Shown here piece by piece: positions 36,301-42,300 of a stretch of 64,000 nucleotides of DNA. Position numbers: made by a program. Each line of letters opens with the position of its first letter. Position 1 is the stretch's first letter. The stretch lies in the NCBI RefSeq assembly GCF_022846255.1, contig NZ_AP025682.1; one strand, written 5' to 3'. Source of the stretch: Escherichia coli. GTDB lineage: Bacteria; Pseudomonadota; Gammaproteobacteria; Enterobacterales; Enterobacteriaceae.

Positions 36301-39300
36301 GAGCGGTTTTTCAATTGCCTCAATGGCATCAGACGGATTCATACATGTATTCCCGGTGAAAAAAGACAAAACCCCGCGCACCGGAAAGGTGGCGGGGGAT
36401 TCACGGAAATAATATCTGTCTGAAATTATCTGGAATCGATTTGGCTGTTCTGCCTGGTTGCCACCAAATCATGGTACGCCTGCTCAATCATTTCATTCAG
36501 CAGTTTTTTTGGGAGGACACCACGACTTCGGGCAATACTTTCAAGCTGTTTGTGGATTTTTCCGGACAGTTTCAGAGGGACGGAACCATCAGCACGTTCA
36601 TCACGCCTTTTTTGTTGCTCCCGGGCACTTTTCAGCTCATCAAGAAGAATCGCTTTATGCTGAATCCTGGGGGCCTGGAAGGAGACCTGCGTAAACTTCG
36701 CTCTGTTCCGTCTGGGATTACTTTCCAGTAAAAACTGTACCTGTTGCTCATTCCAGCCCTCCCAGTTATCAAACGTGGCGCAGGCAAACCAGTATTTCTG
36801 CTCCGGGGTAAGGGGATTCAGCGGGGTTCCCACACACCGGATCTGCATGGCGTTCCATAACCAGTCACACTGTTCACTGTCCCTGCTGTCCACCCACGAA
36901 AAGGGGGAGGGGTAATCATTGTTTATGCTGGCCCATTCAGAGAATACTGAGTTGATAATCGTCCTCGTAGCCTCTGGTCCGGATTTCAGCAGGTAACTGG
37001 AGCAGAACCATATAATTTCACGGTAGATTTTATCCGGATGCACGGTGCGCATCGGCTTTTCTCTGGGACCGGCAATCTTCGGTTGCGATGGAAACCCCGT
37101 GGCAAACCGCAGATGTTCCGGGGGCATTCCTGAACGTTTTTCAGGAATGGGTGTGAGTCCTGCGTTTCTGGTCTTTTCCGCTTGTCCGGTATTGCCTCCG
37201 GCCGGAGTGTTGTCGGGAGTATCTTCCGGAGGCGAGGTGTTTTCATTAGTTGGGGGAACAACAGCAGAACTGTCCATCTCCGGAATGGGTTGAGGGGCAT
37301 AATCACTGTGGTAGCCAGGGGAAAGCGTTAAGTCCCGAAGGGTGACATCAGGTTCCGGGCAGTGAGTGCCACCGGGAGTGAACGGGAGTTGTTGCTTTTG
37401 GGAGAAAAATGTATTGTGAATGCGGGTATACAGCTGGAACAGAAAAAAATAAGATGCCCGTGGTTCTTTTTTTAACCACTGTGTATATTCCTCTATGGCA
37501 CCGAGCTGTTGTTTGTGCCGTTTTACAGTATCGATATACGGACAGCTGGTGCAGATATCATCCAGTTCCTTTCCCACAATACACCTCACCTGCTTTTCTC
37601 ACATTTGCAGATTTTAAAAAAGCAAACAAAAACCTCCGTACATGATGTACAGAACAATCTACCAGGTAGTGGCGTCAGAAAACCTCCGGGCCGCCTGCAC
37701 TTTCCGGAATGCGCCGGTTATGAAAAACCGGAAATTCAGTCTCTGTTGTAAGATGTACCCTCTGATACTACGTTTTCTCTGTGTATTTAACTCACTGTAT
37801 TTATTGTCTTTTTAAGCTTGACTGATATTCTCCGGTCATAGTGTGCCGGATATACATCCCGTAAACTTCTCATTTTTATATAAAAATACCTGCACTCTCT
37901 TCAGCGCATCTGTCTCCTTTAAGTAAAAAATGTTTTCACGTATTGCTGTAAATTCATTTTAAATCAGTATATTACCTTGATATTGCTGTCTCCTGGTTTG
38001 ATGCGTAATCGTTCTGCCTTTCTGGATGATTCTGGTGCTTCCGGGTGCATTCTCCTCTGCACATGCAACAGTTCGTCATCGCCACGCTCCCAAAAAGCAT
38101 ATAAAAACGAATCGAATTTGATATTTTTTTCAATCGTTTTTCATAGGAATTTCGTAGGGTATTCTCCGCTATAACCTCCATATTTGCTGTCTTTTTCTTC
38201 ATAAATCGTATGCAATGTAGCCTGTCTGTCAAGACCTCTTCTCTGCTGTTGAGGAGACGATCTCATTTTTGGTCTTTTCCGGGAGAGAGGCTGTCAGATG
38301 AGCGAGCCGGATTTACTGTCAGAGGTACACCCCGTAGCAGACCTGTGCTCCCATTTCCGCGATCCGGAACCAACAACACCCTACGGTTAATACCATTTGA
38401 AGCGTCAGGTACTGCAGGAAGTTCCCCCCTGCGCGGACATCGGTTCCTGCCGACATCTCACAATACGGCCAGACTGTCATGCAGTAACACCCGCATGCGG
38501 TCTGCGGTTTTAAGCGCACTCTCCCGTTTTCAGTGCACCGATAATGCGTCATAGTAAGTCTGGGGGAAGTTACGGAATGCCTGTTAAGTGGTGCCGTGGG
38601 TGGAGACAGCTTACTTTTCTACAGCAACTGCAGTCATTCAGGATGATCAGGAGATATTCTGTCAATGTCACGATCCTGCCATTTTCGTACCCGCTAAGAT
38701 ACTTCCGTTACTGATGCTGTCCGCTTTTCACCATTTCATCCTCACTGACAGGCGTTGCGTTTTGGGTCATCACCACAGCTTTACGTTTCTCTTTTAACCG
38801 GTAACGCTCTCCTTTGATATTCAGCGTGGTTGAGTGATGCAGCAGTCAATCCAGGAGCGCTGTTGTCCGGCAACCACCATATCAACTTCTTCCCGGGTGT
38901 GGCGGAGAGGTGGTATCCTGGCTGAGTTTCGAAGCGAACCGTTCTTTTTGACGGGCGCATTTTACGTCCGGGCTGAATGTAGTAACGCGGCATGGAACGT
39001 CGGCCCGTATACCATTGCCTTAATCTCCGCAAAGATAACCTCGTCATTCCGGACATTCTCTGCCAGGCATATGTCGATGTAATCCATAAACGATTTCAGC
39101 TTACCCCTTTTGTGGCCAGTCTTTCTGGCTGGCGGTTCAGGGGATGTTTTCTGGTTATCGTGTACCACAAAGCAGGGATATTGCCCCGATAGTCACATTT
39201 CAGATTGATCGCGGTCTGAAGATGTGGCACTGAGGTAACGTGCTGGTGTCACTGGTATTGCTGAAGTTATGGTTTTTCGGGGTCAGGTGAGCCTGTTGTG

Positions 39301-42300
39301 TGTATGCTTTTTGTTCAGGTCAGAGGGGGACTGTGTGGACAGCGGCTTTTGTCTCCGGGCATTCACGCCTGAACGATGAATGCGATTTTCAGCAATATTT
39401 GTCTTTGTGACACTCTCTGGTTGAGAAGCTAATGCGCGCCCCTGTTTCCACAGAGAATGTACTGCACCCATTTTGTTGGACGATGAAATGGAATAGCCCC
39501 TGATATGTCAAAGCCAAAATACCCTTTTGAAAAGCGCCTTGAAGTCGTGAATCACTACTTCACTACTGATGATGGTTACAGGATCATCTCGGCACGTTTT
39601 GGTGTCCCCCGAACCCAGGTCAGGACATGGGTTGCCCTCTATGAAAAACATGGAGAAAAAGGTTTAATTCCCAAACCTAAAGGTGTTAGTGCTGATCCAG
39701 AGTTGCGTATTAAGGTCGTGAAAGCTGTGATCGAGCAGCACATGTCCCTTAATCAGGCTGCTGCTCACTTTATGCTTGCTGGTAGTGGTTCTGTAGCCAG
39801 GTGGCTGAAGGTTTATGAAGAGCGCGGAGAAGCTGGTTTACGCGCGCTCAAGATTGGCACCAAAAGAAACATTGCAATATCAGTTGATCCAGAAAAAGCG
39901 GCATCAGCATTGGAGCTGTCAAAAGACCGACGTATTGAGGATCTTGAAAGGCAAGTTCGATTTCTTGAAACGCGGCTTATGTATCTAAAAAAGCTGAAAG
40001 CCTTAGCTCATCCCACGAAAAAGTGAAAGTACTCAACGAGCTAAGGCAGTTTTATCCTCTTGATGAGCTTCTCAGGGCTGCGGAGATACCGCGCAGTACG
40101 TTTTATTACCATCTAAAGGCTCTCAGCAAGCCTGACAAGTATGCGGACGTTAAAAAGCGTATTGGTGAGATTTATCACGAGAATAGAGGCCGATACGGAT
40201 ACCGTAGGGTAACGCTGTCTCTTCATCGAGAAGGGAAACAGATTAACCATAAAGCTGTTCAGCGCCTGATGGGAACCCTCTCACTTAAAGCAGCGATTAA
40301 GGTCAAGCGATACCGCTCTTACAGAGGAGAGGTAGGGCAAACCGCCCCTAATGTTCTCCAAAGAGATTTCAAGGCTACGCGGCCAAACGAGAAGTGGGTT
40401 ACCGATGTTACTGAATTTGCAGTCAATGGGCGCAAGCTGTATTTGTCTCCAGTAATAGATCTCTTCAACAACGAAGTTATTTCTTACAGCCTTTCGGAAA
40501 GACCAGTGATGAACATGGTTGAGAATATGCTCGATCAGGCATTCAAAAAGCTTAATCCTCACGAGCATCCTGTTCTGCACTCTGACCAGGGATGGCAGTA
40601 TCGTATGAGAAAATATCAAAATATTCTTAAAGAACATGGTATTAAACAAAGCATGTCCAGAAAAGGCAATTGTCTGGATAATGCTGTGGTGGAGTGTTTC
40701 TTTGGAACCTTAAAGTCGGAGTGTTTTTATCTTGATGAGTTCAGTAATATAAGCGAACTGAAGGATGCTGTTACGGAATATATTGAATACTACAACAGCA
40801 GAAGAATTAGCCTGAAATTAAAAAGTCTGACTCCAATTGAATATCGGAATCAGACCTATATGCCTCGTGTTTAACTGTCCAACTTTTTGGGGTCAGTACA
40901 GAATGAGGCTTGCCATCAGCCGAAACATCAGTATTCCACGCCATACAGACGGCGCCTGACCATGTGCTGATGCAGGTAAAATGTTTCACTACAACTGTTC
41001 GGGTTGCTATGCAACGAAACAGCGATTCTCACGATCTTTAACTGCAACGTTTTTCCGCCTGAAAGCTGACTGCCTCCTGCTGAGGTGGGAGGCTATGATT
41101 CAGTGCGTTTATAGTCTCCGGGGTATGCATGTACCGGAGCATACCATTTCTGGTGGATAACAAGCCGGCACATTCAGACTGCAGTGAAGATGGAGGCACC
41201 TGGTTGTGAAGAACGTTTCTGCACGTGGCTGCTTCGCATCATCAATGGTATTCATACCCGCTCAGAAATGACCGGGTGCTGAAGCCCTCCGTTATCGCGC
41301 AGTATAATGACGTATATGATCTGTGGACGAGTGAGCGGCGTGCCTGATGTACGCCGCTATTACTGTATTTTACCACAGGGCTGGTTTTCTGCTGCCAGCC
41401 CTGTGGTTCTCAGACATCAACTGTGAGCGGCATCAACCGATGTACGGTATGCCATAAGCACGTACTGATCCATCAGATTTGTCAGTGGTTCACTCTGACC
41501 CTGACGTGCAATGATCCATTGCTCCAGATCTTTTTCTGATTTGTGTTTCAGGTTTTTCGTCCAGTCGTCAAGGCTGTTTCCGGTCATTAAGTCAAGCCAG
41601 CAGAGCCAGACCAGTTTGAGACGTAACTCCGTGCCGCCAAACTGACGGAAGAGGCTGATCAGTTTGTTTGCCAGAGAATGTTGCTTCAGGCGCTCACATT
41701 CAGACAGCAGGATCCCTTCCAGCATCGGATGATGAACCAGCAGGTGTTCGCTGGTGCATAAATTCACCACCAGATCATCATCCAGGGACGGGGAGCTCCG
41801 TTTGTCCGGACCATAAATCAGCCGGTGCAGACTCTGGGGAACGATGGCAATCTCCGGTTTTTCGCCATTGAATGACACCCACCCGGGCGTCAGATTATGG
41901 AAATAGTAGATATTCGGATGACACACGCCCCATGATACGGCGTGCCGGGTGAAGCCGGTCAGCCATTTCTGGTAGTTTTCATGGAGCAGCTCGTAACGGG
42001 TCTGATACTGTTGTTTCATTTTCATATTCCTCACGGGGGATAACAGGCAGCAGAGCGCCGCCGGCAGGCCGGAGATTGCGTCTGCTGTGGGCGAAGGGTT
42101 AGTGGTTAAAAATTACGGACGGGACTGTGCAATACGCGCCTGCAGCCAGGCTTCCACTTCACTTTTCAGCCAGCGGGAGCTGCGCCCCATTTTGATGGGC
42201 GCAGGAAAGCCCCCATCTTTGATGAGTTTGTCAAACCACTTATCGGTTAGGCCGGTCAGTTGAGTGATAAACGCCATGTCGACCATCTGGTCATCCATCA

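What the first reader, a model, noticed from the sequence alone, without database searches (positions are those of the whole stretch)
37590..39457. About 1.9 kb with no convincing ORF next to IS150: decayed gene or non-coding locus
Only short, overlapping ORFs on both strands are present, with no recognisable protein signature, yet base composition is not unusual. In CP4-type islands comparable spacers hold degraded backbone genes or small RNAs. This is a place where a non-protein feature could hide.
Basis: inference. Interest (0 to 1): 0.3.

Follow-up and report, generated by a model that had tools for sequence, protein, structure and literature searches.

The report
IS debris plus conserved operon leader
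The 1.9 kb "empty" stretch in this E. coli genomic island is insertion-sequence wreckage joined to the unannotated upstream control region of the next operon, so it is mostly ordinary, with one conserved non-coding core that may be worth a transcript map.

Summary
The stretch has no intact gene, but it is not one object. From right to left:

- **39283-39457:** the 3' part of a 71-aa hypothetical ORF, split by IS150.
- **39146-39282:** unexplained spacer.
- **38677-39145:** an internally deleted IS21-family remnant (istB 3' end fused to an istA fragment). RefSeq already annotates it as pseudogenes.
- **37590-38676:** 1,087 bp that nobody annotates. About 2,090 of 5,426 complete E. coli genomes carry it at full length, always upstream of the same 387-aa gene and GTPase operon.

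The 1,087 bp has no protein homologue in any frame, no Rfam match and no codon-like substitution pattern.

Its AT-rich core (about 37630-38330) stays 93-96% identical where the flanks fall to 79-89%. On the minus strand the core holds:

- a sigma-70-like promoter;
- a block with an invariant CCTACGAAWTTnCTAYG, also found upstream of 27-32%-identical homologues in other contigs;
- a lineage-specific segment of about 467 nt;
- two terminator-like hairpins, one of them 45 nt before the start codon.

Best reading: IS scar plus a promoter and leader region. Transcription is untested. Interest is low.

The parts
36426..37589 (-). 387-aa hypothetical gene, first gene of the operon that continues into the YeeP-like GTPase (35470-36381). 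It lies outside the finding but is the gene the region sits in front of.
   Evidence: ORF list. RefSeq 'hypothetical protein' WP_000514103. No Pfam, NCBIfam or PADLOC family. Homologues are few, with 27-32% relatives named for Citrobacter koseri and Cronobacter sakazakii.
37634..37654 (-). Terminator-like hairpin T2 (UUCUGUACA-UCA-UGUACGGAG) followed by GUUUUUGUUUGCUUUUUU. It ends about 45 nt before the start codon.
   Evidence: Pattern scan. Fold -12.8 kcal/mol, z = -3.3. In 23 distinct variants there is one both-sides change (U-G to A-U) and two one-sided changes to G-U; the closing pair is broken in 4. G-U pairs fit the minus-strand RNA only.
37753..37815 (+). Candidate 20-22 codon hydrophobic mini-ORF MYPLILRF(RF)LCVFNSLYLLSF, antisense to the leader. 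Weak, post-hoc lead.
   Evidence: Open in all six E. coli variants, with 5 synonymous and 2 non-synonymous changes and an in-frame 6-nt indel. In the larger metagenome set my hand count from the alignment is about 7 synonymous to 8 non-synonymous. I saw no Shine-Dalgarno sequence, and no plus-strand promoter was predicted.
37891..37908 (-). Weak terminator-like hairpin T1 (UGCGCU-GAAGAG-AGUGCA, then GGUAUUUUUAU).
   Evidence: Pattern scan. About -8 kcal/mol. All 23 variants keep all 6 pairs. The two stem changes are G-U to G-C and G-C to G-U; the other changes are in the loop.
37625..38091 (-). Segment of about 467 nt present in the E. coli island lineage but absent between the conserved block and the start codon in distant relatives. 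It is bounded by direct repeats TGCTTTTT (38092-38099 and 37617-37624) and contains T1, T2 and the mini-ORF.
   Evidence: The block-to-start distance is 569 nt here against 152-156 nt in L013 and L014. Repeat coordinates. Not found in any other context in E. coli genomes.
38102..38179 (-). Ancestral upstream block. The invariant core CCTACGAAATTCCTATG is at 38142-38158.
   Evidence: It is the only part of the 64-kb window similar to the alpA/370-aa-gene intergenic regions of distant relatives L013-L017 (E = 0.002). The 11-mer CCTACGAAWTT occurs once upstream of the gene, on its strand, in every locus tested that carries the gene or its remnant; it is exact in all but L015, which has two adjacent 1-mismatch copies. 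No consensus RNA structure.
38205..38232 (-). Sigma-70-like promoter TTGACA-16 nt-TACGAT, pointing towards the 387-aa gene.
   Evidence: 10 of 12 consensus matches. In 63 copies the -10 hexamer is invariant and the -35 differs in one singleton, while four spacer positions vary.
38233..38676 (.). GC-rich distal half (52% GC), fast-evolving with large indels. No function assigned; probably neutral DNA left between the IS21 end and the promoter.
   Evidence: 79-88% identity and 17-79 gap columns in deep pairs. 19-nt and 43-nt indels. The six-frame HMMER search found only spurious ORF calls made on this same DNA, in all frames.
38677..38865 (-). IS21-family right end with the 3' end of istB (IstB residues 214-265).
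   Evidence: 90.5% nucleotide identity to the end of an intact IS21 (L005 2501-2689). tblastn with IstB: 81% aa identity, E = 5e-24. RefSeq pseudogene 'AAA family ATPase'.
38862..39145 (-). Internal istA fragment (IstA residues 41-134, frameshifted), fused directly to the istB fragment. The IS21 left end and the first 40 codons of istA are missing.
   Evidence: 87.4% nucleotide identity to L005 4102-4385. tblastn with IstA: E = 3e-18. RefSeq pseudogene, annotated 'frameshifted; incomplete'.
39146..39282 (.). 137-nt spacer of unknown origin.
   Evidence: No match to IS21 DNA or proteins. Conserved at 98-100% in CFT073-type islands. Absent from the L010 variant.
39283..39457 (-). 3' part (codons about 11-71 plus stop) of a 71-aa hypothetical ORF split by IS150. 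Its first 16 codons are at 40897-40944 on the other side of IS150.
   Evidence: tblastn with the intact CFT073 copy WP_001327829: 93% identity, E = 4e-36. No NCBIfam family.
39458..40899 (+). IS150, the right boundary of the finding.
   Evidence: RefSeq 'IS3-like element IS150 family transposase'. The uninterrupted flanks join in L004, L006 and L009.

Best explanation
The gap is a composite scar inside a CP4-type genomic island. It has two kinds of content.

**1. Mobile-element debris (39457 down to 38677).** This part holds the tail of a 71-aa ORF cut by IS150, a 137-nt spacer, and an old, internally deleted IS21-family element. That element keeps only its right end with the last 52 codons of istB, fused to about 94 frameshifted codons of istA. 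It has no function.

**2. Non-coding upstream region of the 387-aa gene / GTPase operon (38676 down to 37590, read on the minus strand).** I infer the following order of events:
- Transcription starts at the TTGACA-16-TACGAT promoter (38232-38205).
- It passes an ancient DNA element, CCTACGAAATTCCTATG. That element is conserved in front of this gene family across contigs from other hosts, so it is probably a binding site for an island regulator or part of an activator-dependent promoter.
- It then runs through a leader of about 560 nt. The leader carries two terminator-like hairpins, the stronger one 45 nt before the start codon.
- Expression of the operon would therefore depend on read-through of those hairpins.

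**Shown:** the anatomy, homology, distribution, lack of coding signal, and conservation of the promoter hexamers, the block and the hairpins.

**Inferred:** that the promoter fires, that the hairpins terminate transcription, and that something regulates them.
For: **IS debris**
- blastn and tblastn to an intact IS21.
- RefSeq pseudogene annotation.
- The 71-aa ORF is split by IS150.

**The 1,087 bp is non-coding**
- No Pfam hit.
- No hit for the six-frame translation among 5.8 billion proteins.
- HMMER against 1.84 billion representatives returns only high-identity spurious ORFs from the same DNA, in all frames.
- The 86-aa ORF has 9 synonymous and 22 non-synonymous changes, no third-position bias, and is broken in 3 of 5 variants.

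**Linkage to the operon**
- Full-length copies occur in about 2,087 of 5,426 genomes and 62 metagenome contigs. In every locus I inspected the copy lies upstream of the 387-aa gene or of its deletion remnant.

**Constraint**
- The core is 93-96% identical with 0-5 gaps where the istB fragment, the GC-rich half and the proximal 240 nt are 79-89% identical with many gaps.

**Ancestral element**
- The block is the only window match to the intergenic regions of homologues with 27-32% protein identity.

**Promoter and hairpins**
- Promoter hexamers are conserved while the spacer varies.
- The hairpins keep pairing through G-U, G-C and one U-G to A-U change. This fits minus-strand RNA only.
- T2 folds with z = -3.3.
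- By my reading of the sequence, the roughly 45 nt between T2 and the start codon leave no room for a promoter, so T2 must lie inside the gene's own leader.
Against: - There are no transcript data, so the promoter, the terminators and the leader are all predictions.
- The promoter count in the region (2) is no higher than in shuffled sequence (2.8).
- Whole-segment folds are not unusually stable (z = +0.3 to -1.9). T1 is weak.
- The islands are mosaic, so block-wise identity may reflect recombination rather than selection. For example, L007 and L003 are more alike in the GC-rich half (97.7%) than in the core (93.6%).
- Distant relatives have no predicted consensus promoter near the block and none of the terminator-like hairpins between the block and the gene. 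The attenuator-like leader is therefore lineage-specific and need not be functional.
- The hairpin statistics rest on very few independent changes, and the structures were derived from this sequence.
Confidence: 0.58

Rival explanations
1. The 1,087 bp is neutral leftover DNA from the rearrangement that inverted the alpA module and brought in IS21. Only the short ancestral block next to the promoter matters, or nothing does. The apparent conservation reflects recent spread and recombination among islands.
For: - Identity along the locus is mosaic, and some pairs are more similar outside the core than inside it.
- The element is confined to E. coli-type sequences: two invariant 20/21-mers are absent from all 100,044 species representatives.
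- There is no thermodynamic signal overall.
- Nothing matches in Rfam.
Against: - In every deep comparison the core has 2-4 times fewer substitutions and far fewer indels than both flanks, including the dead IS21 fragment that has been co-inherited with it.
- The promoter hexamers and hairpin pairing are preserved while the spacer and loops vary.
- The region is kept at full length even in the common variant that has lost the 387-aa gene.
Confidence: 0.22
2. The core is an independent small-RNA gene: a transcript of about 300 nt from the 38232-38205 promoter to hairpin T1, or about 560 nt to T2. It would act in trans or as a cis-antisense partner, rather than being merely the operon's leader.
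For: - A promoter is followed by two terminator-like hairpins on the same strand.
- The most invariant stretch lies just upstream of and across T1.
- The region is retained when the downstream gene is deleted.
- No coding signal.
Against: - No Rfam family at E <= 1.
- The fold of the 316-nt candidate is no better than shuffles (z = +0.32).
- T1 is a weak hairpin, and its U-run starts 4 nt after the stem.
- There are no covarying pairs beyond the two hairpins.
- In the deletion variant the region still sits in front of the GTPase gene, which fits a leader equally well.
Confidence: 0.12
3. The lineage-specific 467-nt segment is a type-I-toxin-like module. A 20-22 residue hydrophobic peptide would be made from the plus strand (37753-37815) and kept in check by the overlapping minus-strand transcript.
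For: - The mini-ORF is open in all six E. coli variants, with 5 synonymous and 2 non-synonymous changes, an in-frame 6-nt indel, and a 4-nt deletion that still leaves a 19-codon ORF.
- The peptide is hydrophobic and of Ibs-like size (my recollection of Ibs toxins, not tested).
Against: - It was found post hoc among about 50 short ORFs.
- In the larger variant set the ratio falls to about 7 synonymous to 8 non-synonymous, including Leu-to-Pro and Tyr-to-Cys (my reading).
- I saw no Shine-Dalgarno sequence, and no plus-strand promoter is predicted.
- No known antitoxin RNA family matches.
- No equivalent ORF exists in distant relatives.
Confidence: 0.04
4. The 1,087 bp is a very old, fully decayed protein-coding gene of the island backbone.
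For: Its position between two backbone genes.
Against: - No homologue in any frame in two very large protein searches.
- No Pfam hit.
- No codon-position pattern.
- Distant relatives have only about 500 bp of intergenic DNA at this place, with no gene between alpA and the 370-aa gene, except one 79-aa call in L017.
Confidence: 0.04

Closest known systems
IS21 (IS21 family; istA transposase plus istB helper ATPase)
   Same: 38677-39145 aligns to the right end with the 3' end of istB, and to an internal part of istA, of an intact IS21 at 87-90% nucleotide identity.
   Different: About 1.6 kb is deleted internally and the left end is missing. istA is frameshifted. It is dead. The remnant is shared by all island variants (84-100% identical), so it predates their divergence.
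Leader with intrinsic terminators in front of the first gene, bypassed by AlpA of Pseudomonas aeruginosa (alpBCDE and PA0807 operons; PMC7969949)
   Same: - A promoter is followed by terminator-like hairpins placed immediately upstream of the first gene.
- An AlpA-family (PF05930) gene sits next door in the island.
   Different: - The P. aeruginosa AlpA-binding motif GGGACGN5GGTA is not evident in the promoter spacer (by eye; no scan run).
- The island protein is only marginally similar to solved AlpA-family and TorI structures (E = 0.06-0.1) and could equally be an excisionase.
- Distant relatives lack these terminator-like hairpins between the block and the gene.
- This is an analogy only.
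H-NS-silenced, AT-rich regulatory regions of horizontally acquired islands
   Same: - An AT-rich trough (29-42% GC) sits in front of an island operon.
- Some variants of the island carry an Hha/YmoA-family gene.
   Different: No binding data are available. The idea rests on general knowledge of H-NS preference for AT-rich DNA and was not tested here.
Type I toxin-antitoxin loci with very short hydrophobic toxins (Ibs/Sib type)
   Same: A 20-22 codon hydrophobic ORF lies antisense to a predicted transcript, in a nucleotide-conserved intergenic segment.
   Different: - No ribosome-binding site and no promoter.
- No match to any antitoxin RNA family.
- A single copy per island.
- The coding signature is weak.

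Membership tests
IS21-family insertion sequence | istA (DDE transposase) reading frame | tested here: not met
   Only residues 41-134 are recognisable, at 50% aa identity and frameshifted. RefSeq calls it a frameshifted partial pseudogene.
IS21-family insertion sequence | istB (AAA+ helper ATPase) reading frame | tested here: not met
   Only the last 52 residues (214-265) remain, at 81% aa identity.
IS21-family insertion sequence | Both terminal ends present | tested here: not met
   The right end aligns up to the last base of the intact copy (L005 2501). No sequence corresponding to the left end or the first 40 istA codons was found. Conclusion: a remnant, not a member able to move.
Sigma-70 promoter | -35 and -10 hexamers with 16-18 nt spacing | tested here: met
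   TTGACA-16-TACGAT, 10 of 12. The hexamers are conserved in 62 of 63 copies. However, the number of such sites in the region is no greater than in shuffles.
Sigma-70 promoter | Mapped transcription start | not testable with these tools
   No transcript data were available.
Intrinsic (Rho-independent) terminator | Stable stem-loop immediately followed by a U-run | tested here: met
   T2 has a 9-bp stem, -12.8 kcal/mol, z = -3.3, followed by GUUUUUGUUUGCUUUUUU. T1 is weaker, and its U-run starts 4 nt after the stem.
Intrinsic (Rho-independent) terminator | Termination of transcription in vivo or in vitro | not testable with these tools
   Needs Term-seq or in-vitro transcription.
AlpA-type (Q-like) antitermination unit | AlpA-binding element between -35 and -10 of the target promoter (GGGACGN5GGTA in P. 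aeruginosa; PMC7969949) | tested here: inconclusive
   The spacer is GACAGGCTACATTGCA. By eye it shows only a loose resemblance. The specificity of this island's protein is unknown, and no second copy of the promoter exists in the window.
AlpA-type (Q-like) antitermination unit | Terminator(s) immediately upstream of the first regulated gene | tested here: inconclusive
   Present in the E. coli lineage. Absent between the block and the gene in the three distant relatives scanned.
AlpA-type (Q-like) antitermination unit | Regulator homologous to the antiterminator AlpA | tested here: inconclusive
   The neighbouring 68-aa protein carries PF05930 in the precomputed annotation. It matches solved AlpA-family and TorI chains only at E = 0.06-0.1.
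Any described RNA family (Rfam 15) | Covariance-model match | tested here: not met
   The only hit in 36000-42000 at E <= 1 is a chance mir-15 match inside IS150.
Type I toxin-antitoxin | Short hydrophobic ORF with translation signals and an overlapping antisense RNA | tested here: inconclusive
   The ORF is present and open in all six variants. I saw no Shine-Dalgarno sequence, no plus-strand promoter is predicted, and there is no known antitoxin RNA. The synonymous excess is not robust.
Pseudogene of a protein-coding gene (for 37590-38676) | Detectable similarity of some frame to an intact protein family | tested here: not met
   only spurious ORF calls from the same DNA.

The most novel reading that the evidence does not exclude
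The conserved AT-rich core (about 37630-38230), and especially the lineage-specific 467-nt segment, is a functional RNA-level switch that nobody has described. It would be either an attenuator leader, read through only when an island regulator such as the neighbouring AlpA-family protein modifies RNA polymerase, or a new small RNA or short-toxin module. Through it, about 40% of E. coli strains would control the GTPase/dynamin/patatin cargo of these islands.
Probability: 0.15. Interest if true: 0.5.

Novelty: new member of a known kind. Interest (0 to 1): 0.2.

Why it matters
Mostly it matters for tidiness. It explains a 1.9 kb annotation hole present in roughly two fifths of complete E. coli genomes, and it shows which parts are dead IS DNA.

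The one part with some promise is the conserved promoter, block and leader in front of the 387-aa/GTPase operon. These CP4-type islands are widespread and carry uncharacterised cargo such as dynamin-like, RdcB-like and patatin-like genes. Nothing is known about how that cargo is switched on.

The invariant CCTACGAAWTTnCTAYG element gives a concrete target for binding and reporter experiments. It is conserved in front of homologues that share only 27-32% protein identity.

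Tried and rejected
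- **Rfam scan** of 36000-42000 at E <= 1: only a chance miRNA hit inside IS150.
- **Pfam** on ten ORFs: nothing credible.
- **Six-frame translation of 37590-38676** against 5.8 billion proteins: no hit.
- **Six-frame translation of the GC-rich half** by full HMMER against 1.84 billion representatives: 24 hits. All of them are ORFs miscalled on the same DNA, in all six frames, some with TGA read as Trp.
- **86-aa ORF 37972-38232:** rejected as a gene because of frameshifts in variants, no codon-position bias, and 9 synonymous against 22 non-synonymous changes.
- **Structured-RNA idea:** whole-segment folds are not better than shuffles, and there is no consensus structure for the conserved block.
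- **Mobile-element idea for the 467-nt segment:** there are no partial copies elsewhere in 5,426 E. coli genomes. I saw no terminal inverted repeats; only an 8-nt direct repeat bounds it.
- **11-nt phased repeats around the block:** Tandem Repeats Finder sees only 1.9 copies, in one relative, so I dropped the iteron idea.
- **Wider distribution:** two invariant 20/21-mers are absent from all species-representative genomes. There are no phage matches and only 3 plasmid records. Five of the 67 metagenome hits were chance 20-mer matches.
- **Literature searches** for small RNAs in such islands gave nothing on this locus.

Full report
**Where this is**

The window is E. coli DNA. Positions 36401-42100 are 100% identical to strain SMS-3-5. 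The finding lies in a CP4-type genomic island whose genes here all read on the minus strand, in this order:

- an AlpA-family helix-turn-helix gene (42113-42319);
- a 205-aa hypothetical gene (41417-42034);
- IS150 (39458-40899, plus strand);
- the gap under study;
- a 387-aa hypothetical gene (36426-37589);
- a YeeP-like GTPase (35470-36381);
- dynamin-family, RdcB-family and patatin-like genes.

**Checking the observation**

There is indeed no intact gene in 37590-39457. The longest ORFs are 114, 91, 86 and 82 aa, they overlap on both strands, and they have no Pfam match. The IS150 end is exactly at 39458.

- Part of the stretch does carry a recognisable protein signature: IS21 IstA and IstB, at E = 3e-18 and 5e-24.
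- The composition is not uniform. GC falls to 37-38% at about 37600-38200, next to 52% at 38233-38676.

**Anatomy: the right-hand 780 bp is mobile-element debris**

I compared the region with an intact IS21 on plasmid pAVS0750-A (L005). The results were:

- 38677-38865 is the IS right end with the last 52 codons of istB. It has 90.5% nucleotide identity and 81% aa identity.
- 38862-39145 is an internal piece of istA (residues 41-134, frameshifted), fused directly to the istB piece. About 1.6 kb of the element and its left end are gone.
- RefSeq already annotates both pieces as pseudogenes.
- 39283-39457 is the 3' part of a 71-aa hypothetical ORF (WP_001327829, intact in CFT073). IS150 split it, and its first codons lie at 40897-40944.
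- The 137 nt between these pieces (39146-39282) has no match to anything informative.

The spot attracts insertions. Other strains carry an IS3-family element, IS100 or IS26 at or next to the same remnant.

**Anatomy: the left-hand 1,087 bp (37590-38676)**

This part carries no annotated feature in the RefSeq records inspected, apart from the end of the neighbouring 387-aa gene. It is common: about 2,087 of 5,426 complete E. coli genomes carry it at full length, in identity classes of about 100, 97.5, 95 and 87%, plus an 84% variant (L010). A 20-mer from it recovers 62 true copies in metagenome contigs.

In every locus I inspected it sits between the IS21 remnant and either the 387-aa gene or the deletion remnant of that gene. 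It was not found in other contexts in the collections searched:

- no copies in phages;
- only three plasmid records;
- two invariant 20/21-mers are absent from the representative genomes of 100,044 species.

**It is not coding**

- The six-frame translation finds no protein among 5.8 billion.
- A full HMMER search of the GC-rich half against 1.84 billion representatives returns only high-identity ORFs miscalled on this same DNA, in all six frames, some with TGA read as tryptophan.
- The longest minus-strand ORF (86 aa, 37972-38232) is frameshifted in variants. It shows no third-position excess (14, 8 and 9 variable sites by codon position) and has 9 synonymous against 22 non-synonymous changes.
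- Rfam has nothing.

**It is not uniform either**

I compared six E. coli variants segment by segment.

| Segment | Identity in deep pairs | Gap columns |
|---|---|---|
| AT-rich core 37830-38329 | 93-96% | 0-5 |
| Dead istB fragment | 83-87% | 1-11 |
| GC-rich half | 79-88% | 17-79 |
| Proximal 240 nt | 83-89% | 5-21 |

The caveat is that the islands are mosaic. One pair (L007 and L003) is more similar in the GC-rich half (97.7%) than in the core (93.6%). Recombination therefore contributes, and the contrast is not proof of selection.

**What the core contains (minus strand)**

1. **A sigma-70-like promoter.** TTGACA-16-TACGAT lies at 38232-38205. In 63 copies the -10 is invariant and the -35 changes in one singleton, while four spacer positions vary.

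2. **An ancestral block at 38179-38102.** I fetched homologues of the 387-aa gene with only 27-32% protein identity. Sources name two of the proteins for Citrobacter koseri and Cronobacter sakazakii; the loci are L013-L017.
   - In these relatives alpA is transcribed divergently from the gene, across an intergenic region of about 500 bp.
   - The only similarity of those intergenic regions to the operon side of the window is this block (E = 0.002). Their alpA-proximal half matches 42387-42416, upstream of the window's alpA.
   - So the E. coli lineage inverted the alpA/205-aa module, and the old divergent control region was split.
   - The 11-mer CCTACGAAWTT occurs once upstream of the gene, on its strand, in every locus tested that carries the gene or its remnant. 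It is exact in all but L015, which has two adjacent 1-mismatch copies.
   - The block has no consensus RNA structure, so it is more likely a DNA site.

3. **A lineage-specific segment.** The block lies 152-156 nt from the start codon in L013 and L014, but 569 nt here. The extra segment of about 467 nt (38091-37625) is bounded by an 8-nt direct repeat, TGCTTTTT. I could not identify its origin. It is not repeated elsewhere.

4. **Two terminator-like hairpins in that segment.**
   - T1 (37908-37891) is weak.
   - T2 (37654-37634) folds at -12.8 kcal/mol with z = -3.3. It is followed by a U-run and ends about 45 nt before the start codon.
   - Across 23 distinct variants T1 keeps all pairs. Its two stem changes are G-U to G-C and G-C to G-U.
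   - T2 has one both-sides change (U-G to A-U) and two changes to G-U, and its closing pair is broken in four variants.
   - The G-U pairs are possible only in minus-strand RNA.
   - These are few events, and the structures were read from this sequence, so the support is modest.

**Most likely mechanism**

The 1,087 bp is the upstream control region of the 387-aa/GTPase operon. It has a promoter, a conserved regulator-binding or promoter-associated DNA element, and a long leader whose hairpins could limit read-through. By my reading of the sequence, the roughly 45 nt between T2 and the start codon leave no room for a promoter, so T2 must lie inside the gene's own leader.

The region is retained at full length in the common variant in which the 387-aa gene is deleted down to its last 184 nt. 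There it sits in front of what follows.

The arrangement of a promoter, then terminators just before the first gene, with an AlpA-family gene alongside, resembles the AlpA antitermination units of Pseudomonas aeruginosa (PMC7969949). I could not establish membership, for three reasons:

- The published binding motif is not evident in the promoter spacer.
- The island protein is only marginally similar to solved AlpA-family and TorI chains.
- The three distant relatives scanned lack the terminator-like hairpins.

None of the transcription steps is shown.

**Rivals**

- Neutral scar with recombination-driven similarity.
- An independent small RNA running from the promoter to T1 or T2.
- A type-I-toxin-like mini-ORF on the plus strand (37753-37815, MYPLILRF(RF)LCVFNSLYLLSF). 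It is open in all six variants with 5 synonymous and 2 non-synonymous changes. However, it was found post hoc and I found no translation or transcription signals for it. In the larger variant set the ratio drops to about 7:8 (my count).
- A fully decayed backbone gene, for which there is no evidence.

**Verdict**

The finding is real but largely ordinary. About 40% of it is IS debris that RefSeq already flags. The rest is an unannotated, conserved non-coding upstream region. The new pieces of information are the ancestral CCTACGAAWTTnCTAYG element, the inversion that split the old alpA-side control region, and the lineage-specific leader with conserved hairpins. They are worth a transcript map and a reporter experiment, and not much more at present.

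Noticed in passing
window 36642-37589 (compare L003 4782-5001, L008, and about half of the metagenome loci L019-L085): A common island variant has lost almost the whole 387-aa gene: the upstream region at 37590 is joined to the gene's last 184 nt (36641-36458). The 1,087-bp upstream region and the IS21 remnant are kept at full length.
   Followed up: partly
window 42387-42416 and 38102-38179; L013-L017 intergenic regions: In distant relatives alpA and the 370-aa gene are divergent neighbours, about 500 bp apart. In E. coli islands the alpA/205-aa module is inverted, so the two halves of the old control region now lie 4 kb apart with IS21 debris between them.
   Followed up: yes
window 37753-37815 (+): A 20-22 codon hydrophobic mini-ORF, MYPLILRF(RF)LCVFNSLYLLSF, lies antisense to the predicted leader. 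It is open in all six E. coli variants, but I found no ribosome-binding site or promoter and the coding signature is weak.
   Followed up: partly
window 38938-39012 and 39458; L002, L004, L006, L009, L018: The IS21 remnant is an insertion hot spot. Different strains carry an IS3-family element (at about 38940), IS100 (at about 39012), IS26 (next to 38609) or IS150 (39458) at or next to it.
   Followed up: partly
window 37640-37665 and 37765-37775; 38420-38430: Small length polymorphisms exist among variants. They include a 9-nt duplication TTCTGTACA in front of hairpin T2, a 6-nt duplication GAAAAC, a 43-nt indel and a 19-nt deletion in the GC-rich half.
   Followed up: no
protein P0035; window 37200-37589 and 38370-38554: One database protein fuses the N-terminal 125 residues of the 387-aa protein to a plus-strand frame of the GC-rich half. 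This suggests a rearranged (inverted) variant of the locus, or a misassembly, in some genome.
   Followed up: no
window 30887-36381 (-): The cargo downstream of the gap is a GTPase, a 798-aa dynamin-family protein, an RdcB-family protein and a patatin-like phospholipase. There are only weak PADLOC hits: LeoBC for the two GTPases and a phospholipase effector model for the patatin.
   Followed up: partly
window 38609-38676; L018 3001-3068: In strain AVS0151 only the last 68 nt of the 1,087-bp region survive, next to the IS21 remnant. An IS26 copy inside a lambdoid prophage cuts them off, which shows that the remnant and its flank have been moved as a block.
   Followed up: no
proteins P0029, P0030, P0032, P0033: The large protein collections contain 170-190-aa 'proteins' that are translations of this non-coding region with in-frame TGA read as tryptophan. 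They look like products of gene calling with the wrong genetic code.
   Followed up: no
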